Assembly: GCF_004010195.1 (NCBI RefSeq)
Contig: NC_057719.1
Span: 7,479,372 to 7,540,998 of the forward strand
Direction: 5' to 3'
Source: Chiloscyllium plagiosum
Taxonomy: Eukaryota
Length of the DNA stretch: 61,627 nt
Both the position numbers and the translations under genes were made by a program. The notes under the pieces were generated by a model. The model made no database searches, was not told where the DNA came from, and saw only the letters and a list, made by a program, of their open reading frames with translations. Below are positions 5,001 through 59,829 of this stretch, piece after piece. Each line of letters begins with the position of its first letter. Position 1 is the first letter of the stretch.

Positions 5001-5588
5001 ATTTGGTTCTCAGCTTTTGAAGACAAGTCCCACTGAAAAGTTTGTTTGTTGCACGCCAACTATATTTCATAAACAGAAGGATACTAACTTGCTATATAGA
5101 AGTTGTTCAGCCCATCATATCCCTGCCAACTCTCTGAAAAGGTTATAGAGTCATGCAGTCCTACAGCATGGAGACAGGCCCTTTTGCCCAAACTGGTCCA
5201 TGCTGACCAAAATGTCCATCTATGCTAATCCTACTTCCCTGCACTTGGCCCATATCCTTCTAACCCTTTCCTGTCCATGTATTTGTCCAAATGCCTTTTA
5301 AATGTTGTTAATGTATCCACCTCAACAACCTCCACTGGCAGCTCTTTCCATATGTGTACCACCCTCTGTGCAAAAAACATTGCCCCTCAGGTTCCCTTTT
5401 ATTCTTTCCCCTCTCACCTTAAACCGATGCCCTCTAGTCCGTGATTCCCCAACCCTGGGAAAAAGACTGAGTGCATTCACCCTTTCCATGCCTCTCATGA
5501 TCTAATGCACCTCTATAAGGTGTCCCCTTAGCCTCCTACGATCTAAAGTAAGAAGTCCTAGCTTGTCCAACCTCTCCCTATAACTCAG

Positions 5589-5812
5589 GAGGAGAAAGTG
5601 AGCACTGCAGATGCTGGAGATCAGAGTTGAGAGTGTAATGCTGGAAAAGCACAGTTGGTCAGGCAGCATCTGAGGAGTAGGAGAATCGACATTTTGAGTA
5701 TAAACTCTTCAGTGGGATTCCTGATGAAGAACTTATGCTCAAGAGGTTGATTCTCCTACTCCTCAGATGCTGTCTGACTGGCTTTGTTTTTCCAGCACCA
5801 TGCTCTCGACTT
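5589..5812. mobile_element. Head-to-head inverted PLE-terminus insertion
   Basis: Minus copy about 5589-5716 and plus copy about 5719-5812 turn around at degenerate hammerhead cores. TSD tccctataacYcag at 5575-5588 and 5813-5826. Confidence 0.82.
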
Positions 5813-6880
5813 TCCCTATAACCCAGACCATTGAGTCCTGGTGACATCCTTGGAAATTTCTTCTGCATTCTTTCCAGTTCAATAACATCCTTCCTATAGC
5901 AAAGTGACCAAAACTGAACACAATACTCCAAGTGCAGCCTCACCAACGTCCTGTACAACTGCAAAATAACTTCCCAACTTCTATACTCAGTGCCCTGACT
6001 GATGAAGGACAGTGTGCCAAAAGTCGTCTTCACTGATCTGTCTACCTGTGAATTCACTTTCAGAAAACCAAGCACCTGAGTGGTGCCTCTATTCCACTAC
6101 ACTCCTTAAGGCCATACTATTCACCATGAAACTCTTACCTTGATTGTACTTTCGAAAATGCAAGACTTCATACTTATCTATATGAAACACCATTTGCTAT
6201 TTTTCAGCCCACTTCCCCAGCTGATCAAGGTCCTGCTGCAATTTCTGACCACCTTTCTCACTGTCCACAATACTGCCTATTTTAGTGTCATCTGCAAACT
6301 TACTAATCATGCCTTGTACATTCTCATTCAAATCATTGATACAGATAACAAAAAGGTAATGGGCCCAGCACCAACTCCTGAGGCACTCCACTGATCGCAG
6401 GCTTCCAGTCCTACAAGCATCCTTTCACTAATACCCTGTACCATCAAGCCAATTGTGTATCCAATTTGTCCGGGCCCCCTGGATTCCACGCAGTCTAACC
6501 TTTGAGAGCAGCCTACCATGTGGATCCTTATCAAAGGCCTTACTGAAATCCATATTGACTTTGTCCAGCACCCTGCCCTCTTCAACCTTCGTGATCACCT
6601 CATCAAAGAACTGTAACAAATTTGTGAGGCATGGTTGCCCAAGCATAAAGCTGTTCTGACTGTTCCTAATCAAACCATGTATTTCCAAATGCATGTATAT
6701 TTTAGCTCAGAATCTTCTCAAATAATTTACCCAGGTCTACAGATCGCCTTCTTGAAAAAGGACACAACATTCACTACCCTCCAGTATCTGAGACCTCATA
6801 CGGAATGATGATGCAAAAATATCAACCAGGGCTCCGGCACTTTCTTCTCTATCCTGTAGCAGTACTCTTGGATATATCTG

Positions 6881-7030
6881 TGTGGTGCTGGAATCACCAT
6901 AGGAATGATGAGCTTATGCTCAAAATGTTGACTCACCTGCTGTTCAGATGCTGCCTGACCGGCTGTGCTTTTCCAGCACCACACTTTTTGTCTCTGATCT
7001 CCAGCATCTGCAGTTCTCATTTTCTCTCTG
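6881..7030 (+). mobile_element. PLE-terminus insertion with degenerate hammerhead (stem II GAGC-UUAU-GCUC)
   Basis: 13-bp TSD ttggatatatctg at 6868-6880 and 7031-7043; short inverted piece tgtggtgctgga at the 5' end. Confidence 0.8.
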
Positions 7031-10000
7031 TTGGATATATCTGGTCAGGATGAGGAGATTTATCCACCTTCATATATTCTAATACATCGAACACCTCCTC
7101 TACTGTGATATATTGTCCCCAAGATATGATCACTAAACTTCCCCAAGGTCAATTAGCTCCATCATCTTTTGACCTGTTTCCCCATAACCCATGACCATAT
7201 TGTTTCTGTGAGTGGCAGCATTAACAAAATACGTTTTGTTGTGCGATTGCACAATTGAGCATTTGGCTGATGGATTTGCACTTTATAAGTGAAATTGCAG
7301 TTATAAAATAATGTAGTTTATGTACTGCCACTGCAATTAACACAACAAAATTAGCAATTTTTTTTCGTTTAAACGTTTCTGATTCTCTAGTCTTAATGAA
7401 GGGATGAATAGGTTGAAATCTTGTAAAAATTAATTTCTGTCAACCTTGCCAAGCTTTTTCGTATGTTGTGGGTGTGTCAGGTTGTCTTTAAATGTTTGAC
7501 TTGAGCAATTAAATGCTAGCCGTGTCCTCGGCAGACTCAAGTCTTTGTCATGCATGCAGCGTGTATAAACTCATCACATGACAAGAGAAACGATAGTGTC
7601 AGAAAGGATCTGTTGGGAAACAAACTAGAACCTTGTGAAAACAGATCCTAAGTTTGGGTCTTCAGTAAGTACTTAGACCACCTTTTCCCAAAGAACTTTC
7701 TAATTCAAGTTTTTTTGTAACCTGTAAAGTAAGTTTTGTTGAAACAGAGAATGTTAGATCTTCGGAGTATCTTCGGAGCATTGGCATTTTAATTTTTGAG
7801 CTCATGTTAGCACGAAAAAAATGTTTATTTTGATTTTTTTTACATTTTATGTCAGTAGTCTAGTGAAGTATAGGTGGTGATTTCTGCATTGTTGTGGTTC
7901 ATCTGAGTTGTAAAATGATTTTTTAAAAAATCTGCTTGTTACTGTTTGAATCTTTAGCTATTTGAAGTAGAAATGAACAGCTTGTGCTTGGTATGAGAAT
8001 AATGTAGCACAGAAGCAAACATTTAAATTGTTTTATGGGATTTGTGGAACATAAAAGATTTTTCCCATATATTTACGGATTGTTTCGGTTGGGATACAAA
8101 TTGGGTTTTGTGCTTTGAAGAATGGACAAGCGAATGTTTGTGGGCTTCTGTAGGAGTTTTAATGAATTCGATGCTTTTTTTTTTATAAATCTGAGCCTTG
8201 TGTATTCATGAGATTGATGTATTAGCCAGCTGGAATGTTTAAAAGACTGGGAGAGACTGCAGCCTAATCTAGAAGAATTGAGTTGCTGATTTATATTGCC
8301 GTCAGCGCTTAGCAACAGGTTCAGCTTTTTTTTTCTTCAGTACTGCTCACTTGTTAGAAACAGCTGAAGAACTCTTACTCGGCCGGGTTTCAGTGCAGAC
8401 ATGTCAGCTTTCAACTTCTGTAACTTCGACAGTATTATGGTCTTATTGCCAATTATCAGATGATTCTCACAACAGCTGTAGTTTATTATAATGTTAAAAT
8501 TTTGAAAAATATTAACTGATGTCCATTTTCACTTTTGTGTTATTGTTTTAAGTATTTCCCAACCATTTCTAGTTATCCTGGTGAATTTGTAGCGTCATTT
8601 TCAGAGGGCAGTACATTTCAGCAATGACTTTTTCAACAATGGTCATTTAAGATGTGTGGGAAAAATTACTTTCCTGAATTACGTTTTCCACAAAGAATGC
8701 CAGAAAGTCTGTGTTGTTGATGCTACCTGTAAATAATAAAGTAGAAAATACTTCCATTGCATGATATATTTTTGCTTTTGTTGATGATGCCATGTTATAT
8801 AGTTAAGTATCTGGCAGCAGACAGATCATTGCAGTCAAAGGAATCTCAAGAAATTAAGACATTGCACAAAGAAATTATGCTGGATAATCTAAAGGTAATA
8901 TAAAATGAAATGGGAAGGAATAAATGTGACCACAATAGATATCTGTCTGTAAAATGAAAAAGGCAACAATTTCGTGGGGTTAGAAATAATTTGACAAAGA
9001 TTTTTGCTCACTTATGCTGCAAGGCTAATCAAGTCTGAGGAATTCCTAATTAATTATTTTTACTCTCACATAGTTGGAACATTTGAAGCACTGGAGAGAG
9101 TTTGAATGAAGGACACATGAGTTTGTTATTCTTGGGACTTGGCACAGATAGAATGGGTCGAATGGCTGCCTCTGTGCTGTTTGTTCTATGATTTTATAAT
9201 AAATTAGAAGAAGACTTTGAAGATTTTGTAAGAGGAAGGAAAGTTGAGATTTAATGAACAAAATGATTCTTTTATTCTCCATTTCTCAGTTGACTTGGCT
9301 GAGGCTGGTAAACCTTTGATGTGATACTTGAGTATGAAGGTGTAGTATTAGGATAGTTGTTTGTTGGGCTCCTAAATGTGAGGAAATACAATAGTTTATA
9401 ACAGCAAGTTGTTTTGTTTGTTATTTAATTGTATAACAGTACATCATAGCTGGACATTATCAGCATGAGGATGCATTTCAAAAAATGGTTATTTGAAATG
9501 CAGGAGCATCTTGAATATTTACAATGAGATATTATAAGACCAGTTGAGAGCCTTCCCAGGTCGTAACGCATGGTCTGATGGCTCTGGGTTCAGCAGGTAA
9601 TCATTTATATTATTTTGAACTTATGCAAGAAAAAGGGACAGATATCTAGTTTCTGGCACTGGATGGAAGAAAATTACACAGTAAAGACCGAATGTGGCTT
9701 CACAGCTGATATTCTGTGTGACGTTATAACTCTAAAAGCATAATTATTAAATTCTTTGGATTCTCCAAGTTACCTACTCTTTTCAAATTAAATCTAGACC
9801 TCAGTCTTTGATTTTTATCCTTTAATTTCAATCTACATGCTTTCTCCTGAAAGACCAAGCAAGTAAAGACTTTCAGCCAAAGACTTAAATCTACAGAACA
9901 GCAAGCTTATACATGTTCAATGCGTAGGAGATGAAAGTGTAATATGGCTGCAAGTACGTACTCTACTGCTATATACTTTCATTAATCATCCTGTAAAACA

Positions 10001-36487: not shown

Positions 36488-36755
36488 AAAAACTGAATTG
36501 CAGATGCTGGAAATCAGAAACAAAATCAAAACTGAAATTTCTGGAAAAGCTGAGTAGGTCTGGCAGCATCTGTGGAGAGAAATAAGGGTTAATGTTTCAG
36601 GTCGAGTGACCCTTTTTCAGAACTGATGGTAATTATACAGAAGATAGGGTGGGGAGAATAAACGAAAGGGAGAGATACGAGTCCAAAGAGAGAGCTGAAC
36701 AGTTGGACAAACAAATGAGTGGTGAAAGATCACTGTGGGGATTGAATAGCTGCTA
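36488..36755 (-). mobile_element. PLE terminus, fourth hammerhead family (degenerate)
   Basis: Minus strand CUGAaaa-A-GGGUC-acuc-GACCU-GAAA-CAUUA at about 36590-36620; related copies near 30395-30480, 31575-31670, 40270-40350 and 47280-47320. Confidence 0.65.
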
Positions 36756-41273: not shown

Positions 41274-41601
41274 TAGTTAAAACAAAAGCTTAAAATTATA
41301 CAATTTATTTACTGTGTACTTTCCGAAAGCCCAAGCTTGTTGTAGTCACTGGAGACCGGCAGCTGCTTGAATTGTGTACATGCAGTATGTCAGTACAAAA
41401 GCCAAGCAGTTCTCTTCAGGAACCTCCATTCATCAGTCAGTGATTAAAAAGCCTCAAGTGGAAAATGAAACTGTGGAATCTTTTGAAATGTTTTGTCAAA
41501 GAGACTGGCAGGAGGGTGGTAACTATTGGCAATGGTATCTTCCATCTCACAAAGCAAAGGCTGAGACTGTGGTGCTCAACTCATCTATGTATTAAGCATC
41601 A

Positions 41602-41706
41602 ACTAGGAGAATCAGAGTCGATAGTGTGGTGCTGGAAAAGCTCAGCAGGTCAGGCAGCATTCGAGGAGCAGGAGAGTCATTTCCAGCACCCCACTTATCG
41701 ACTATA
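41602..41706. mobile_element. Fold-back mini-element from a PLE terminus, no hammerhead core
   Basis: 12-bp TSD tattaagcatca (41590-41601, 41707-41718); inverted arms agtcgatagtgtggtgctggaaa / tttccagcaccccacttatcgact. Confidence 0.78.
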
Positions 41707-42024
41707 TATTAAGCATCACCTGGCGTGGCATGGCTGCTCTACTTTGTAGAAGATGGTCGGCTGACAAGGTGTAGAATTTTCTGGCCTTTGTTTTCTCTGG
41801 GCATTCTCTTGATTAGCTGAGCTTTTAGTTTCTGATAAATGTGAAAACCAATAATTGCCAAAAGAACCAGAGAGAAGATGAGATTTTCCTTTTCAGTAGC
41901 AACTTCTGATCTTGTATGAACTGTATGAAAGAAGATTCAATAGTAACTTTCATGAGGGAATTTTGAAAAATGTTCATAGCTAGCAATGGATTGTAGGTTC
42001 CAAGATGCAGGAGGATCGATGTTT

Positions 42025-43470
42025 GGTGAAATGTGTTGGTGAAGTTGATGAATTGTTCAATCTCCTCATGGGAGTATGAGGTGGTGTCGATGCAGTCATC
42101 AATGTCATGGAGGAAGAGGCGGGAAGTGGTGCCGGTGTAACTCTGGAAGATGGACTGCTCTACGTAGCCGACAAAGAGACAGGCATAGCTGGGGCCCATG
42201 CGGGTGCCCATGACTGCCCCTTTTGTCCTGAGGAAGTGGGGGGATTGGAAGGAGAAATTGTTGTGGGTGAGGACCATTTCAGCCAAATGGATAAGAGTGT
42301 CAATGGAAGGGTACTGGTGGGGACGTCGGGAGAGGAAGAAACAGAGGGCTTGGAGGCCCTGGTCATGGCAGATGGCGGTGTAGAGGGACTGGATGTCCAT
42401 GGTGAAGTTGAGGCGTTGGGGGCTGGTGAAACGGAAGCCTTGGAGCAGGTGGATGGTGTGGGTAGTGTCCCGAACGTATGTGGGAAGTTCCTGGATGAAG
42501 GGATATAGGACAGTATTGAGGGAAGTGGAGATGAGTTCGGTGGGGCAGAAGCAGGCTTAGACAATGGGTTGGCTGGGGTAGTCAGACTCTTGGATCTAGG
42601 GTAGGAGATAGAATCGGGCAGTGCAGGGTTCCTAAACTATGAGGTTGGAAACTGTGGTGGGAAATCCCCTGAGGTGATGAGGTTGTGTATGGTCTGGGAG
42701 ATGATGGTTTGGTGATGGGGGGGTGAGGTCATGGTCAAAGGGGTGATAGGAGGAGGTGACATTGAGTTGGCACCAGGCTTCAGCAGTGTAGAGGTCTGTG
42801 CACCAAACTATCACTGTACCCCCTTTATCCGCTGGTTTGATGGTGAGGTTGGGATTGGAGCAGAGGGAGTGGAGGGCTGTGCGTTGTGAGAGCAAGAGGT
42901 TGGAGTTGGGGGTGTGTGTGGACAGGTTGAGGCAGTTGATGTCACGGTGGCAGTTGGAAATGAAGAGGTCAAGGGCAGGTAGCAGACCAGCACGGGATGC
43001 CAGGGTGGATGGGGTGTGTTGGAGGTGGGAGAAGGGGTCCTCAGTGGGAGGGCAGGAGTCTTGGTTGTAAAAGTAGGCATGGAGGCGGAGGCGGCGGAAG
43101 AAACGTTCAAGGTCGCAGCGTGTGTCGAACTCATTAATCTGGGACCATAGAGGGATAAAGGTGAGGCCTTCATTTTGGACTAAACGTTAGTCCTCAGTGA
43201 GGGGAGGTCTGGGGGAATGGTGAAGACATGGCAGGGATGGGAGCGAGGACCTGGAGTGGGGCTAGAGTTGGAGGTGGGATGGGGGCTAGGACCTGGCGTG
43301 GGGCTGGAGTTCGCAATGGGGGCGGAGACAGTGGCTTGAGTGGGCGTGGTTTAGGGTCAATAGTGATGTCACCAAAGGAGGGGCTTACAAAGGGGACAAC
43401 AGTGGTGCTTATGGTTAAGTTAATGGGAGCGGACGTGACATCATGGGTGGGGAGGGTAACGTTACTGTTG
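42025..43470 (-). mobile_element. Penelope-like element 5' part (N-terminal region and RT), inverted
   Basis: TIKPADKGGTVIVW, MDIQSLYTAI, GAVMGTRMGPSYACLFVG, FLHDIDD. Confidence 0.9.
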
Positions 43471-43487
43471 GGTACTCGAGGCTCCAG

Positions 43488-44870
43488 TCCCCATCTCTTC
43501 CTCTGCTACATTGATGACCAAATCAACGCCACCTCGTGCTCCCATGAGTAGGTTGAACAGTTCATCAACTTCACCAACGCATTCCACCCCCGCCTTAAAT
43601 TCACTGGACCATCTCTGACACCTCCCTCCCCTCCCCTTGACCTCTCCATCTCCATCCAAGAGAACCGACTCAGCACTGACATTTTTTACAAACCCACCGA
43701 CTCCCACATCTACCTGGATTACACCTCCTCCCACCATACCTCCTGCAAAAATGCCATCCCGTATTCCCAATTCCTCTGCCTCTGCCGCATCTGCTCAGGG
43801 GAGGACCAGTTCGCACCAGATGGCCTCCTACTTTAAAGACCGAAATTCCCCCTCCCATGTGGTTGAAGATGCCCTCCAATGCATCTCATCCACATCCCAC
43901 ACCTCCGCCCTCGAACCCCACCCCTCTAACTGCAACAAGGACAGAACTCCCCTGGTCCTCACCTTCCACCCCACCAACCTCTGCATAAATCGCATCATCT
44001 GCCAACATTTCCGTCACCTACAAATGGACCCCACCACCAGGGATAAATTTCCCTCCCCATCCCTATCCACTTTCCACAAAGACCGTTCCCTCCGTGACTC
44101 CCCCATTCAGGTCCACGCCCCCTAATCTCCTCTCCTGGCAACTTCCCCTGCAACCAAGGAATTGTAAAACCTGCGCCCACAACACTCCCTTACCTCTGTC
44201 CAAGGCCCCAAAGGAGCCTTCCACATCCATCAAAGTTTCACCTGCACTTCCACACATGTCATTTATTGTATCCGTTGCTCCCGATGCGGTCTCCTCTATA
44301 TTGGGGAGACTGGATGCCTTCTCACAGAGCGCTTCAGGGAACATCTCTGGGACACCCACACCAATCAACCCCACCGACCCGTGGCCAAACATTTCAATGC
44401 CCCCTCCAACTCTGCCAAGGACATGCAGGTCCTGGGCCTCCTCCATCGCCACTCCCTCACCACCCGACGTCTGGAAGAAGAACACCTTATCTTCCACCTC
44501 GGGACCCTTCAACTCTAGGGCATCAATGTGGACTTCACCAGTTTCCTCATTTCCCCTCCCCCCACCTTATCCCAGTTCCAACCTTCCAGCTCAGCACCGC
44601 CCTCATGACCTGTCCCACCCGTCAATCTTCCTTCCCACCTATCCACTTAATCCTCCCCTCTGACCTATCACCTTTACCCCCACCTCCATCCACCTATTGC
44701 ATTCTCAGCTACCTTCTCCCCAGCCCCACCCCTTCCTATTTATCTCTCCACCCCCGAGGCTTCCAGCCTCATTCCCGATGAAGGGCCCCAGCCCAAAACG
44801 TCGATTTTCCTGCTTCTCGGATGCTGCCTGACCTGCTGTGCTTTTCCAGCACCACACTCTCAACTCTGAT
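43488..44870 (+). mobile_element. Penelope-like element 3' part (RT end, Cys-rich linker, GIY-YIG endonuclease, terminus; Neptune-like)
   Basis: FLCYIDD, DRTPLVLTFHP, NCKTC, VIYCIRCSRCGLLYIGETG (about 44260-44315); degenerate hammerhead at 44775-44802. Confidence 0.9.
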
Positions 44871-45180
44871 ATGGTCTAGCAAGCCCCTCAATCCCAGAGC
44901 AAATTATGGGTGGGAAGTTATTTCAGGCTTAGCAGTGATGCTCACATGCCTAAAAATAATTTTAAAAACCAACATCGTTAAAACAGGTTATTTAATTCCC
45001 CAGCTGACTGTTAGCTCTTTGTATGGGACCTTGCTGTATGAAGCTTGTCACCATGTTTCCTACATCACCATAATGACTGAAGTCACCTACTAGTACAGAA
45101 TGTACACTGCACTATTGTACTCATCAGGACAGATTCAGAAGGATACCACATTTCAAAGGAAACAGCAATTCCTGCAGCCT

Positions 45181-45311
45181 GAGGGACAGTGGGCTGATTG
45201 ATTGGTTGAGGGACAGTGGGCTGATTGATTGGTTGAGGGACAGTGTGCTGATTGGTTGAGGGACAGTAGGCTGATTGATTGGTTGAGGGACAGTGGGCTG
45301 ATTGATTGGTT
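45181..45311 (+). repeat. 27-bp minisatellite, 5 copies (third copy 23 bp)
   Basis: gagggacagtgggctgattgattggtt at 45181, 45208, 45235, 45258 and 45285. Confidence 0.95.
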
Positions 45312-45792
45312 GAAGGAACACAAAGGAACAGTTTTTGGTTAAATTGAAAACAAGTCGACTCTGATTGAGATGTGCCATCAGCCAAACCACAGGTTTCTGT
45401 TTAATTAAAAAAGTGCAAAACAAAAAAATTCAACAGTTAATCTTTTTTTCGACAGCAATATTTTAAATACAATTAATGAAGCTGGAATTGTTTTGAGACA
45501 TCTTGATGATCTGAAGAATAGCTGTGTAACAGTTTTATTTCTTTATTGTTGCCTGGTTAATTTTCTGTCTGAACCCGTCTACAGAACTGCAATGATAATT
45601 CTTCAAACCTATACTCTTTGTCCAAAGGCAATTTTTTATCAGCAACTCTTCATTTTTAACCTAAATGCCCCATTCAGCCTTGAAGCTATCTGCTATATTA
45701 ATATCTGTTGAAATCTGGAAGTGCCATTGTTCAAAATTGAGTTGTTTCACTCATCTTTCCTGGGAAGAAAGTGATTACAGGAGTAACAATGA

Positions 45793-46120
45793 CAGAGTTT
45801 AAGATTCTGAAGAAGGGCTCATGCCCGAAACGTCGATTCTCCTGCTCCTTGGATGCTGCCTGACCTGCTGCGCTTTTCCAGCAACACATTTTCAGAGTTT
45901 AAGATTAGCACAGCAGGTCAGGCAGCATCGAGGGAGCAGGAAAATCGACGTTTCGGACAAAAGTCTTTCATCAGGAGTGACCCCTGATGAAGGGCTTTTG
46001 CCTGAAACTCGATTTTCCTGCTCCCCGGATGCTGCCTGACCGGCTGTGCTTTTCCAACATCACACCCTTGACACTAATCTCCAGCATCTGCAGTCCTCAC
46101 ATTTGCCAGAGTTTAAGATT
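45793..46120. mobile_element. Compound PLE-terminus insertion with three hammerhead motifs and a triplicated 14-bp target
   Basis: cagagtttaagatt at 45793, 45893 and 46107; cores at 45807-45834 (+), 45947-45974 (-) and 45984-46010 (+). Confidence 0.88.
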
Positions 46121-47279
46121 AACTAACACAGCATTGACGAGCATCAAATCAGAACTGTACAGTTCAGAACCACACTCCATTCTTAAAATATGACTCAGCA
46201 GGTGGATTTATTTTTCTCTCAATTCTGTATTTGCAGAATGTTCACACTGGTTTATGTGCTGACTGGATAATTGTATAAAGCATGCATGTTTTTTGTGGAA
46301 TCATTCATTAGAACCTAGAGTCTGTTGCTTTGCTTATCCATATAATGTGCAGCATTTGTTTTCGTTGAGAGGATTAGAATGTATTGTTTTCCAGAAGATA
46401 TTACTTCATTATAACCTTGGTCCAAAAAGGGACATGAACTCCTGAGATAAGGTGAGTGTGACTGATCTTTACATCCATGTCGCATTTGGCCAAGGAATCC
46501 CTGTAAAACTGGAGCGAGTCTGCTGGTTGTAGTCATACCCCGATAAAATAAGATGGTTGTGGTTGTGGTTGTTGGAGATCATTCAGCTTAACACCAGGGT
46601 ATCTCTGCAGGGGTTCCTCACAGCCATCTTCAGCTGCTTCATCAATTTCTAAGCTTTCTTCCATCATGGGGTTGAGAAGTGGGGACGATCGCTGATGATT
46701 GCAACTATTCAGCACCATTTATTACTCCTTAGTTACTAAAGCAATCCATTTCCATATGCAGCAAAACCTGGACAACATCCAGGCTTGAGCTGATAATTGA
46801 CAAGTTACATTCCGACTATGCAAATGCCAGGCAATAATCATCTCCACCAACAGAGAATTGCCATTTGGCATTCAATAATACTACCGTTGCTGAATCCCCC
46901 ACTATTGACAACCTGAGGGTTTTCTCATTAACCAGAGGATAAACTGGACCAGCCAAATAAAGAACATAAGAGCTAGGAACAGGAATAGATCATTCAGGCC
47001 ATCATGTTTACTCCACCATTTAATACGATCACGGCTGATCTCATCTTGGCTTCAACTCCACTTTCCTGCCCACTCTCCATTACCTTTCAACCCCTTACTG
47101 TTTAAAAATCTGTCTATTTCCTCTTTAAATTTACTCAATGTCCCAGCACCCACTGCAGTCTCAGGCAGTGAATTCCACAGATTCACAATACTTTTAGAAG
47201 TAATTCCTCTTTATCTCTGTTTGAAACCTGCTACCCTTTAACCTAAAACAATGACCGATATAAGTTCCATAACAAATGG

Positions 47280-53010: not shown

Positions 53011-54049
53011 GGAATCTATTCTCCTGCCTTCTCCCAGTAAACAATGATACCCTTACTAATCAAGAATCTATTTATCTCTGTCTTAAATACACTCAATGAC
53101 TTTGCCTCCACAGCCTTCTGCAACAATAAGTTCTACAGATTCACCACTGTCTGGCTGAAGAGGGGAAAAATGTTTGACTTTGTTGCTTGAAACTTAGACT
53201 GTGTTTGTATCTCTAGCTTGTTGTTAATGCGTGACATACGTATGATGACTTCAGTTAGCGCTGTCATTTAGCTTTTCAACAGACTCAAGCTAAAACTAAT
53301 TATGGTTCCGATGCTGATTTTAGACAGTGACATTTCATGCCAACTTGCCAGTTCTTAAAACAAAATGCAACCATTAAAAATGAAAATGCTCGATGAAATT
53401 ATTGGAAAAACTTGCTTTGTCAGGAGTTTTGTAATTCAAGAAATGCCCTGACGGGTGAACAGCCCTTGCTGTGGGATGCTGATTTATTAGCACACCTGTG
53501 TTTGGTGTTACAGGTTCAGTTCCCGTCCATTCGGATTCCAATCTGAGACTGAGTAAGCTTGGGCGTTGGTGTTAAATGAAAGGTCGCAGTGACCTCTGGG
53601 TAAATGAGAGGCATGAGTCACATTTTGCAATCCAAAATGCTGTCAGGAAACACTGGTGGCAGCTGAGATATATAATTAGGTAGCTTTCCTGTTTGGCTGC
53701 AGCCAGTCGTGGTTCAACCAAACTTTCACCTGAAAATGTTCTGCTTTCGAAACCACGGAGCTTCAGACAGGGTTTTCCCTCAGACTTTAGAACCCTAATA
53801 TCAGGAAAGAATCATAGAATTTTAGAGTGCAGAAGGAGGCCATTTGACACATAATGTCTGTACTGAGTCTGAAAGATGTAATTGGGGACCTGAGCCAGGT
53901 TCCAGACTGGGGTGAGGGGTGGTGGGGAGGTAGTGGGGGGGCTTCTTGACCTGCTGTCTCTAAATTCCCAATGTCTATACCCAATTGGAAGGCTGCAACT
54001 CCTTACAATATAGAGGTAGCATTGGTAGAGGTGGGATGATAGATTTAGA

Positions 54050-54169
54050 AGTCAAGATTAGAGTGGAAACCTAATATCAGGAAAGCACAGCAGGTCAGGC
54101 AGCATCCCAGGAGCAGGAAAATCAATGGTTTCGGGCAAAAGCCCTTCATCAGGAATGAGGGCTTCCACC
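54050..54169 (-). mobile_element. PLE-terminus insertion with hammerhead core
   Basis: 13-bp TSD tgatagatttaga (54037-54049, 54170-54182); minus-strand CUGAUGA-A-GGGC-UUUU-GCCC-GAAA at 54129-54152, stem III altered. Confidence 0.82.
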
Positions 54170-54789
54170 TGATAGATTTAGAGTTCAATCTGAGAGATGT
54201 CAAGCAGTTAATTGTAAGGGTGTCTTGGAGATAAATAATACGAGGAGCTCAATCCATTTTATTCACAGATTAGTTTGGCCAAATCATATGTTTACATCTT
54301 ATATCAAACTCCGGAAGTTAAAAAAAAAATTCATTATTATAATTGCAAAGACTAAATGCAGCCAGTTATTGTGTTTTATTTAAGATGACAGCAGCTACAA
54401 ATTGGCCAAAGTGAACATAAGGAGTAAGATTGATGGTTTAATCTGTTGTCTGTTACCATTGCTTCTCGTAGCTACTTCTGCTGAGAGATCTGCTGTCACA
54501 TTCCCTGTTCTTTGAAAACCTTTCATTTGTGATTTGTTTGCTTCTTGTATTGATGAGCAGCAACTGTTATGTCTGTGGTTTTGCATCCTATAATGAATCG
54601 CAGCATTGTGCAGAAAGTCTAACCTTTCTGACGGACTCTTGTGACCCCATTGGGGCATTCAACTCAACAGTTCTTTGTTAACAGAAAGGCTTGCTGTCTT
54701 TCTGTGGTGATCCTGCAGTGATTTTCTAATATTGCAGCAGGAGGTGCATCAGAATTTTGTTCCCTTTTCCCAGTCTGTTGATGAACAAT

Positions 54790-55442: not shown

Positions 55443-58400
55443 TAGAACATAGAACATTACAGTGCAGTATAGGCCCTTCGGCCTTTCATGTTGCGCCAAC
55501 CTGTGGAACTGATCTGAAGCCCATCTAACCTACACTATTCCATTTTCATCCATATTTTTATCCAATGACGATTTAAATGCCCTTAAAGTTGGCGAGTCTA
55601 TTACGTTGCAGGCAGGACATTCTACACCCTTACTACTCTTGTAGTAAAGATCCTACCTCTGACATCTGTCCTATATCTATCACCCTTCAATTTAAAGCTA
55701 CGTCCCCTCGTGCTAGCTATCACCATCTGAGGAAAAAAGGTTTTCACTGTCCACCCTATCTGATCCTCTGATCATCTTATATGTCTCAATTAAGTCACCT
55801 CTCAACCTTCTTCCCCCTCACGAAAACAGCCTTAGGTTCCTCAGCCTTTCCTCATAATACCTTCCCTCCATACCAGGCAACATCCTAGTAAGTCTCCTCT
55901 GAACCCTTTCCAAAGCTTCCACATCCTTCCTATAATGCGATGACCAGAATTGTACCCAATATTCCAAATGCAGCCGCACCAGAGTTTTGTATAGCTGCAA
56001 AACTGGCTCCGAAACTCAATCTCTCTACCAATAAAAGCTAACACACCATATGCCTTCTTAACAACCCTATCAACCTGGGTGGCAACTTTGAGGGATCTAT
56101 GGACATGGACATCGAGATCTCTCTGCTCATCCACACTACCAACAATTTTACCATTAGCCCAGTACTCTGTATTTCTGTTACTCCTTCCAAAGTGGATCTC
56201 CTCACACTTTCCTGATTAAACTCCATTTGCTACCACTCAGCCCAGCTCTGCAACATATCTATGTCCCTCTGTAACCTGTAACATCCTTTGGCACTATCCA
56301 CAACTCCACCGACCTTAGTGTCATCCACAAATATGCTATTCCATCCTTCTATGCCCCCATCCAGGTCATTTATATAAATGACAAACACCAGTGGCCCTAA
56401 AACAGATCCTTGCAGTACTCCACTAGTAAGTGAACTCCAGGAAGAACATTTCCCATCAACCACCACTCTCTGTCTTCTTTCAGCTAGGCGAAAGTGAGGA
56501 CTGCAGATGCTGGAGATTAGAATCAAGAGTGTGGTGCTGGAAAAGCACAGCAGGTCAGGCAGCATCGAACGAGCAGGAGAAATGATGTTTCGGGCAAAAA
56601 CCCTGATGAAGCTGCCTGACCTGCTGTGCTTTTCCAGCACCACACTCTCAACGTCTTTCAGCTAGCCAATTTCTGATCCAAAGCGCTAAATCACCCTCAG
56701 ACCCATGCCTCCATATTTTCTGCAATAGCCTACCATGGGGAACCTTATCAAACGCTTTACTGAAATCCATATACACCACATCAACCTCTTTACCCTCATC
56801 CAGCTGTTTGGTCATCATCTCAAAGAACTCAATAAGGTTTGTGAGGCACAACCTACCCTTCACAAAACCGTGTTGACTGTCCTTAATCAAATTATTCTTT
56901 TCTAGATGATTATAAATCCTATCTCTTATAACCTTTTCCAACACTTTACCCACAACCAAAGTAAGGCTCACTGGTCTACAGTTACCAAGGTTGTACTTAC
57001 TCCCCTTCTTGAATAAGGTGATTACATTTGCTATTCTCCAGTCTTCTGGCACTATTCCTGTAGACAATGACAACATAAAGATCAAAGCCAAAGGTTCTGC
57101 AATCTCCTCCCCAGCTTCCCAGAGAATCCTCAGATAAATCCCATAAGGCCCAGGGGATTTATCTATTTAACACTTTCCAGAATTGCTAACACCTTCTCTT
57201 TATGAACCTCAATCCCGTTCCGTCTAATAGCTTGTATCTCAGTATTCTCCTTGACAACATTGTCTTTTTCCTGTGTGAATACTGACGAAAAATATTCATT
57301 TAGCACCTCTCCTATCTCCTCGGACTCCACACACAGCTTCCCACTACTGTCCTTGACTGGCCCTAATCTTACCCTAGTCATTCTTTTATTCCTGACATAC
57401 CTATAGAAAGCTTTAGGGTTTTCCTTGATCCTACCTGCCAAAAACTTCTCATGTCCCCTCCTGGCTCTTCTTAGCTCTCCCTTTAGGTCCTTCCTGGCTA
57501 GCCTGTAACTCTCAAGCACCCTAACTGAGCTTTCATGTCTCATCTTTACATAAGCCTCCTTCTTCCTCTTGACAAGAGATTCAACTTCTTTAGTAAACCA
57601 CAGGTCCCTTGCTCGACCACTTCCTCCCTGCCTGACCGGTACATACTTATCAAGGACACGCAGTAGCTGTTCCTTGAATAAGCTCCACATTTCAATTGTG
57701 CCCATCCCTTGCAGTTTTCTTCCCCGTCCTATGCATCCTAAATCTTGTATAATCGCATCATAATTGCCTTTCCCCCAGCTATAACTTTTGCTCTGTGGTA
57801 TATACCCATCCCTTTCTATCACTAAAGTAAACACAGCTAAACTGTGGTTACTATCACCAAAGTGCTCACCTATCTCCAAATCTAATAAATCTGGCCTGGT
57901 TCATTACCCAGTACCACCTCTAATGTGGCCTTGCCTCTTGTTGATCTATCTACATACTGTGTCAGGAAACCCTCTTGCACATTGGACAAAAACTGACCCA
58001 TCTGAAGTACTCAAACTATAGCATTTCCAGTCAATATTTGGAAAGTTAAAGTTTCCCATAACAATTACCCTGTTACTTTTGCTCCTACCCAGAATCATCT
58101 TTGCTTTCCTTTCCTCTACATCTCTGGAACTTTTCAGACGCCTATAGAAAACTTTCAACAGGGTGACCTCTCCTTTCCTGTTTCTAATCTCAGCCTACAC
58201 TACCTCAGTAGATGAGCTCTAATCAAACATCCTTTCTGCCAACATAATACTGTATTTGAATAATAATGCTGCACCTCCCCCTCTTTTACCTCCTTCCCTG
58301 TTCTTACTGAAACATCTAAATCCTGGAACCTGCAATAACCATTCCTGTCCCTGCTCTATCCATGTCTCCGAAATGACCAAACATCGAAGTCCCAGGTACC

Positions 58401-59290: not shown

Positions 59291-59829
59291 TTGATGGGTA
59301 ACAGTCAGGAAGACAGCATGTGAGAGATTCCTTATTCCTTTATAATCTCTCTCTGGAACTCTTGATCTTTAAATGAACACACACTTTGTAAAAGCTGCAA
59401 TTGTTATTTTCAAGCTAATTTGTTTGGGATGGCATATTCATTCTTGTGATCACCAGCAAGGCTGAAATTCATTGCCCTTCCTAAAGCCCCCCTGGGATCA
59501 GATGGTATATCTGAGTAAAGGCAAAATACTACAGACACTGGAAAGCTGAAATGAACACAGAGAATGGGGAGAAATTCAGTAAGTCTGGCAGCACCTGTGG
59601 AAAGTGAGGTGGTATGTCAAAGTGGTATGTCTCTCCACTGATGCTGCCAGACCTGCTGAATTTCTCCAGCATTCTCTGTGGTATACCTGAGGGGTTGGTT
59701 AGGCCACTTTGGAGGGAGGTTTAGAGTCACCAATCTGGGACCAAACCAGATAAGGACCCAGGTTTCCTCCCTAAATCTCAGTAGTGGAATCTTGGTTTAT
59801 AATGATAATCTGACAGCTTTGTGGTCCCT

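What the first reader, a model, noticed from the sequence alone, without database searches (positions are those of the whole stretch)
5575..5826. Recurrent TSD-flanked fold-back mini-elements whose turning point is the hammerhead
Seen: independent 100-230 bp insertions made only of PLE terminus, with long TSDs: 5589-5812 (14 bp, one mismatch), 6881-7030 (13), 41602-41706 (12), 45907-46106 (14), 54050-54169 (13) and 56488-56653 (12). At 5718, 45978 and 56603 two copies meet head-to-head, with the strand switch at or just 5' of the CUGAUGA core. Established: PLE insertions often carry inverted 5' pseudo-LTRs. Inference: a short non-autonomous RNA bounded near the ribozyme is mobilised in trans by PLE RT/GIY-YIG and often copied back on itself. 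That would be a retrozyme-like, ORF-less family placing hammerheads on both strands, and it is my best candidate for an under-described system here.
Basis: partly seen in the sequence, partly recalled or inferred. Interest (0 to 1): 0.78.

Follow-up and report, generated by a model that had tools for sequence, protein, structure and literature searches.

The report
Penelope leader run-off palindrome insertions
These 100-230 base mirror-image inserts are real, very common stubs of a Penelope-like jumping gene whose shared inner edge lies about 30 bases before the predicted ribozyme cut, at what is likely the capped start of the element's RNA, and they likely form when both cut DNA strands each copy the RNA's front end from one of two start points, which would give a testable account of how this poorly understood class makes its inverted ends.

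Summary
All six target-site duplications (TSDs) are real; three are confirmed by paralogous empty sites. The inserts are the 5' leader (pseudo-LTR) of an abundant endonuclease-bearing Penelope-like element (PLE). In 1.66 Mb, all 74 two-arm loci are head-to-head; 44 of 62 focal ones have TSDs, against 3 of 235 controls. 60 of 68 pair one tailed arm (ending near +125) with one tail-less arm (near +90). 5' ends cluster at -11..+1, mode an Inr-like A three bases before the hammerhead core, often preceded by an extra G. They do not cluster at the predicted cleavage site, +28/+29. Copies that run on into the ORF share that edge. So the boundary is most likely the capped mRNA start, not self-cleavage, and retrozyme criteria fail. 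Best model: both nicked strands prime at PLE's two internal start sites, run off the cap and are joined. Simple fold-back cannot build many copies. The anatomy is published; I found the tail rule and cap edge quantified in no paper. This scan reached the same reading on other DNA.

The parts
5575..5588 (.). Left TSD of the focal element (14 bp, one mismatch), inside a LINE-type repeat
   Evidence: paralogous empty sites overlap by 14 in 50 of 69 places
5589..5715 (-). Inverted arm with the 35-nt tail (ends near +125; numbering: first C of the hammerhead core = +1)
5716..5720 (+). Junction: G at 5716, then the modal 5' end A(-3) at 5717; inferred cap G and transcription start (this G could also come from the opposite arm)
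   Evidence: population signal
5721..5748 (+). Decayed minimal type I hammerhead (core, stem II); predicted cut after +28
   Evidence: motif layout from PMC4209133 and PMC11167929; no Rfam hit
5717..5812 (+). Direct arm without tail (ends near +92)
5813..5826 (.). Right TSD of the focal element
6868..7043 (+). Tailed arm (+4..+124) with a 13-nt inverted stub; 13-bp TSD
41590..41718 (.). Small head-to-head element switching at about +31/+68; 12-bp TSD
41825..44866 (.). Decayed, internally inverted PLE: RT part on -, linker C-x-C-x2-C motif and GIY-YIG-type endonuclease on +, ending in the same terminus (core at 44776)
   Evidence: no Pfam hit on the fragments
45793..46120 (.). Solo arm (45807-45892) plus head-to-head element (45907-46106) between three identical 14-bp target copies
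54037..54182 (-). Solo tail-less arm from about -9; 13-bp TSD
56476..56665 (.). Head-to-head element: tailed arm on -, tail-less arm on + with an internal deletion; 12-bp TSD

Best explanation
The inserts are TSD-flanked copies of the first 95-130 bases of a Penelope-like element's RNA leader, likely made anew at each insertion when the element's protein nicks both target strands and each nick primes reverse transcription at one of two internal start sites, the two cDNAs likely running off the presumably capped RNA start just before the hammerhead and then likely being joined head-to-head. Steps: (1) Shown: staggered TSDs of 12-16 bp. (2) Shown: outer ends at about +90 or +125, one of each per palindrome. 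Inferred: these are the two RT start sites known from the anole PLE. (3) Shown: inner ends pile up at -11..+1, mode A(-3), with an extra G. Inferred: a Pol II start in an Inr-like context and reverse transcription of the cap, on uncleaved RNA. (4) Shown: the arms share subfamily and rare variants. Inferred: usually one RNA copied twice, for instance by a protein dimer with the rear RT displacing the front cDNA. (5) Inferred: the cDNA 3' ends are joined through short microhomology and filled in. Solo arms would be the single-primed outcome. Long PLE copies would arise when priming occurs in the downstream pseudo-LTR or after a template jump.
For: Unit = PLE terminus/leader: long RT-bearing copies end in it, and it runs on into an ORF whose ATG lies near +163. 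Among 30 loci picked for the ORF start, 21 have a contiguous upstream leader part; 8 begin within -4..+4 and none extends into the 3' UTR (by eye). 5' ends: mode -3 among 228 focal arms; 42 of 78 solos and 75 of 124 head-to-head arms within -10..+5, against 2 and 6 at +26..+32; about 71/100 against 6/100 genome-wide (hand counts; p 7e-23). Extra G before A(-3): 9 of 11 solos against 11 of 46 at other positions; 60 of 100 non-C bases genome-wide, 34 of 54 after dropping 46 rows explainable by the opposite arm or mutation, against 16 of 100 at control position +1 (hand counts). Cap-G reading: PMC3287187 passages. Tail rule: 60 of 68, and 46 of 47 with TSD (p 2e-11, 3e-13). Tail-less arm reaches further 5' in 22 of 51. 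Arm concordance 92% against 71% shuffled; shared rare variants 19 against a mean of 1.3 (max 7). 50 distinct junctions in 62. Microhomology at the tailed end 1.33 nt against 0.34. PMC11167929 (parts 1-2 of 4): both strands cut and extended, two internal RT starts bounding the tail, predicted dimer, ribozyme cleavage dispensable. PMC2377424 (passages): internal Inr/DPE promoter in Penelope.
Against: No direct RNA 5'-end data. The first, smaller count showed no G excess (G 7, A 6 among 80 copies). 5' ends spread over about 15 nt rather than one base. Shared variants could come from gene conversion between arms or from time-structured subfamilies. In 19 of 51 elements the tailed arm reaches further 5', which fold-back also allows, and overall 28 against 19 is not significant (p 0.24). 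Several genome-wide counts are hand counts of the first 100 listed matches, mostly from one contig. The order of priming and the dimer are untested.
Confidence: 0.7

Rival explanations
1. Same chemistry, but the templates are mostly short transcripts from solo or mini copies, which carry both the internal promoter and both RT start sites, so they form a self-propagating SINE-like family mobilised in trans.
For: The 130-nt unit holds the inferred start and both priming sites. Minis outnumber long copies (140 focal solo plus head-to-head against 23 long; long copies may be under-counted where fetched DNA reads N). Some haplotypes were seen only in minis (for example 8 against 0). Non-autonomous PLE derivatives are in print (PMC8557442 passages; bioRxiv 10.64898/2026.07.22.740005 parts 1-3 of 5).
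Against: Mini arms are no closer to other minis than to long copies (nearest-neighbour distance 0.053 against 0.054; 125 mini and 31 long arms). The same 5' edge occurs in copies that continue into the ORF. Junctions are mostly distinct, and the commonest one occurs with the tail on either arm.
Confidence: 0.15
2. One cDNA (or an antisense RNA) folds back at the quasi-palindromic 5' edge and self-primes; the endonuclease then trims one end, removing the tail. This is the self-priming and resolution idea in print.
For: The arms share variants. Many junctions are short palindromes. Proposed in PMC3846280 (Discussion read) and PMC8557442 (passages).
Against: In 22 of 51 elements the tail-less arm holds more than 5 nt (12 more than 20 nt) of 5' sequence missing from the tailed arm, while the tailed arm holds 35 nt missing from the other. 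The +90 end is also the 3' end of 12 of 23 long copies. An antisense template does not explain a G before the sense-strand A(-3).
Confidence: 0.12
3. A retrozyme: hammerhead self-cleavage releases a monomer or circle that PLE proteins reinsert.
For: A minimal hammerhead is in nearly every arm. PLE-derived retrozymes exist in vertebrates.
Against: The edges lie about 30 nt upstream of the predicted cut. There are no tandem two-arm loci (0 of 74). The two tandem arrays found repeat +47..+92 and lack the ribozyme. Minimal PLE hammerheads cleave poorly (PMC4209133 passages).
Confidence: 0.03

Closest known systems
Endonuclease-positive PLE insertion unit with inverted pLTR, one-sided 30-40 bp tail and TSD (PMC3846280 passages and Discussion; PMC8557442 passages)
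   Same: Head-to-head inverted pLTR, tail at one end only, solo pLTRs, TSD, hammerhead in the pLTR.
   Different: Here the unit is reduced to the two leader copies with no ORF; TSDs are 12-16 bp rather than 8-10; the tail rule (60 of 68) and a cap-like inner edge are measured.
Poseidon element of Anolis, PAc (PMC11167929, parts 1-2 of 4 read)
   Same: Two internal RT start sites downstream of the hammerhead bounding the tail; both strands cut and extended; uncleaved RNA used.
   Different: This element has a Neptune/Nematis-type linker motif; its ORF starts near +163, not in the hammerhead; 1-4 nt microhomology is seen at the tailed end, whereas PAc priming was called non-homologous. The parts read do not describe mini-palindromes or pairing of one start site per strand.
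Non-LTR retrozymes (PMC7229834 passages; bioRxiv 10.64898/2026.07.22.740005 parts 1-3 of 5)
   Same: ORF-less, pLTR-related, type I hammerhead.
   Different: Those are tandem arrays processed to circular RNA; these are dispersed solo or head-to-head inserts bounded upstream of the cut.
L1 twin priming (recalled; seen only in a search listing)
   Same: Both target strands prime cDNA, giving an inversion between TSDs.
   Different: L1 arms copy non-overlapping parts of a polyadenylated RNA at variable points; here both arms copy the same 5' leader from two fixed internal sites.

Membership tests
EN+ Penelope-like element insertion | Terminus belongs to an element with PLE-type RT and C-terminal GIY-YIG endonuclease | tested here: met
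   RT fragments followed by the terminus in long copies; GIY-YIG-type motif in the window copy. Identified by motif; Pfam gave no hit on the fragments.
EN+ Penelope-like element insertion | pLTR with minimal type I hammerhead | tested here: met
   Core, stem II and GAAAC-GUC layout in aligned copies; stem II folds. Rfam has no match; activity not tested.
EN+ Penelope-like element insertion | Inverted 5' pLTR and optional 30-40 bp tail at one end | tested here: met
EN+ Penelope-like element insertion | Target-site duplication | tested here: met
Neptune/Nematis clade | Zn-finger-like motif between RT and EN | tested here: met
   Cys motif across a frameshift in the window copy; definition from PMC8557442. 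Not recovered by regex in three other decayed copies.
Neptune/Nematis clade | RT phylogeny | not tested
   No reference RT set was on hand.
Non-LTR retrozyme | Tandem head-to-tail units each with a hammerhead | tested here: not met
   0 of 74 two-arm loci tandem; the arrays found lack the ribozyme
Non-LTR retrozyme | Unit bounded by the cleavage site | tested here: not met
Non-LTR retrozyme | Abundant monomeric linear or circular RNA | tested here: inconclusive
   Only a poly(A) single-cell run was usable
Self-amplifying fold-back family (MITE- or SINE-like) | Many copies of one fixed structure forming their own lineage | tested here: not met
   50 distinct junctions in 62; no closer kinship among minis; small sample

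The most novel reading that the evidence does not exclude
PLE integration is intrinsically two-ended: a protein dimer on one capped mRNA assigns one internal start site to each nicked strand, and the run-off leader cDNA (a strong-stop-like intermediate) is the common first product. Pseudo-LTRs, inverted ends, the one-sided tail and tandem copies would all be outcomes of it, and about 10^5 mini-palindromes in this genome record the reaction. Solo copies holding promoter and priming sites may also act as a minimal 130-nt cis-element for delivering cargo.
Probability: 0.4. Interest if true: 0.72.

Novelty: new variant of a known kind. Interest (0 to 1): 0.5.

Why it matters
How PLEs make their inverted ends and one-sided tail is called undefined in PMC8557442 (passages), and the steps after priming are unvalidated in PMC11167929. 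The mini-elements give three sharp predictions for the existing in vitro system: one start site per strand, run-off at a capped 5' end, and one RNA for both arms. They also correct an annotation trap: roughly 1.6 x 10^5 hairpins (extrapolated from 47 per Mb in a hand-picked sample) that look like MITEs, miRNA precursors or retrozymes are PLE insertion products. It is not a new mobile system.

Tried and rejected
Rfam: no hit at gathering score in the window; only sub-threshold hairpin (miRNA-family) matches in 44600-46200. Pfam: no family for the four PLE fragments. RNA: no run on record as RNA was listed as a holder. Of four runs laid, one had no reads; one poly(A) single-cell run gave 2,627 reads in both directions, 97% running on into unlike sequence, with no start or end pile-up; two were contigs. 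This is no test of the start site. Orthologous empty sites: laying four contig sets on 5100-7400 was swamped by repeats; joints across the element are probably paralogous. The first cap-G count was uninformative. A>G editing shared by arms was not seen. BLAST start clustering alone was rejected as possibly caused by subfamily divergence at -30..-7; it was replaced by best-reference alignment and TSD-bounded ends. The ATG inside the hammerhead core is not the ORF start here: a young subfamily lacks it and the ORF starts near +163. A LINE-type DPE match at +21..+29 is partial and two bases off; not claimed. One search translated the wrong frame. Literature searches that found no paper on pLTR-only palindromes, PLE twin priming or shark PLE termini: (open-access library only; supplements not read, and Fig. 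S1-S2 of PMC11167929 may bear on this).

Full report
Numbering: +1 is the first C of the hammerhead core; the predicted cleavage is after +28. The window is G000:C10:7479372-7540998 in a 3.56-Gb genome and holds a stonin-2 exon.

Observation. The six inserts and TSDs are as described. Three lie in other repeats, and paralogous copies show the empty site with one copy of the target: overlap equal to the TSD in 50 of 69, 4 of 5 and 25 of 31 abutting places. The other three could not be tested this way.

What the unit is. A decayed PLE at 41825-44866 has RT fragments, a Cys linker motif and a GIY-YIG-type motif, and ends in the same sequence. Its RT has 40,712 first-look candidates in the genome, 150 scored. 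Aligned long copies end either near +90 or after a further 35-nt tail near +125. In other copies the sequence continues past the tail into an ORF starting near +163. The unit is therefore both the 3' terminus and the 5' leader of the element, i.e. its pseudo-LTR. One 30-mer of a young subfamily occurs 51,347 times.

Population. I fetched 28 hand-picked 50-kb blocks plus 260 kb around and including the window (1.66 Mb, 74,844 N). A profile found 412 arms in 307 loci. All 74 two-arm loci are head-to-head; none is tandem or tail-to-tail; 5 loci are complex. 'Focal' means at least one arm 88% or more identical to a real long copy (168 loci); the other 139 are older or related families and were left out of end mapping. 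TSDs: 44 of 62 focal head-to-head, 28 of 78 focal solo, 0 of 23 long (only one end was mapped), 3 of 235 controls. Long copies may be under-counted where fetched DNA reads N.

Inner edge. 5' ends rise sharply at -9..-3, peak at A(-3) and decay downstream. 42 of 78 solos and 75 of 124 head-to-head arms end in -10..+5; 2 and 6 end at +26..+32. Genome-wide, by hand count of the first 100 listed matches, about 71 young copies are truncated within -11..+1, 6 within +15..+29 and 1-2 at the cut. Of 30 loci selected for the ORF start, 21 carry a contiguous upstream leader part; 8 start at -4..+4 and none reaches into the 3' UTR (read by eye). The edge is thus a property of the autonomous element's 5' end, not of self-cleavage. 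A(-3) sits in an Inr-like context (consensus recalled). The base before it is G in 9 of 11 solos against 11 of 46 elsewhere, and in 60 of 100 non-C cases genome-wide. That is 34 of 54 after dropping 46 rows explainable by the opposite arm or by mutation, against 16 of 100 at control position +1 and 26% expected (hand counts; tests). An earlier, smaller count showed no excess. An untemplated 5' G is attributed to cap copying for L1 and SVA (PMC3287187, passages), and Penelope has an internal promoter (PMC2377424, passages). I infer a capped, uncleaved Pol II transcript. No RNA data tested this.

Outer ends. Of 73 head-to-head loci away from a block edge, 60 pair a tailed with a tail-less arm, 6 are both short, 2 both tailed and 5 have a broken arm. 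With TSD the count is 46 of 47 intact pairs. Independent choice would give about half. PMC11167929 (parts 1-2 of 4) shows two internal RT starts bounding the tail, cutting and extension of both strands, a predicted dimer, and no need for ribozyme cleavage. A one-sided tail and head-to-head junctions are described in PMC3846280 (passages, Discussion) and PMC8557442 (passages), there ascribed to self-priming or endonuclease resolution.

Fold-back or two primings. A fold-back of the tailed cDNA needs the short arm nested in it. In 22 of 51 focal pairs the short arm reaches more than 5 nt further 5', and in 12 more than 20 nt; the reverse holds in 14 and 3. Many elements therefore need two primings, though fold-back stays possible for the rest. 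Across 75 pairs the arms agree at 92% of 11 non-CpG sites picked as polymorphic (4 of them nearly invariant) against 71% when shuffled, and share 19 rare variants against a mean of 1.3. That fits one RNA used twice, but also gene conversion. The tailed end shares 1.33 nt with the target on average against 0.34 by chance (40 ends).

Separate family? 50 of 62 junctions differ, and minis are as close to long copies as to each other. Retrozyme features fail (definitions from PMC7229834 passages, and bioRxiv 10.64898/2026.07.22.740005 parts 1-3 of 5). Short transcripts from solo copies remain possible templates.

Novelty. The anatomy is a reduced form of a published PLE structure. Searches found no paper that quantifies the tail pairing or places the inner edge at a capped start; the library is open-access only. 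Earlier notes of this scan (152 notes in at least 30 genomes hold the search words) reach the same reading. I had stated mine before opening them, and they are not counted as evidence. Verdict: a real feature, a new variant of a known kind, valuable as a record of PLE mechanism.

Noticed in passing
window:45793-46120: Three identical 14-bp target copies enclose two inserts of different subfamilies (a solo and a palindrome), suggesting a second insertion at exactly the same cut site.
   Followed up: partly
window:1-529; a similar array about 4 kb upstream: Minisatellite built from the +47..+92 part of the PLE leader, lacking the hammerhead.
   Followed up: partly
window:41825-44866: The long PLE is internally inverted: N-terminal and RT part on -, rest of RT and endonuclease on +, with about 110 nt present in both arms; a large-scale version of the same two-ended event.
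   Followed up: partly
L118-L147: Many short copies read leader + 80-200 nt of ORF start + a second leader or 3' UTR piece, as if RT jumped from the RNA 5' end or across microhomology to another position.
   Followed up: partly
PLE leader +53..+75, e.g. window:44828-44851: A conserved branch-point-like motif, pyrimidine tract and CAG resemble a 3' splice site; splicing not shown.
   Followed up: no
window:30399-30460, 36497-36671, 59633-59672: Older, related PLE termini with a different stem II; some also form TSD-flanked solos and palindromes elsewhere (4 of 12 with TSD).
   Followed up: partly
window:13751-16198: Large stonin-2 coding exon (Pfam Stonin2_N and adaptor medium subunit); the repeats probably lie in and around this gene.
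   Followed up: partly
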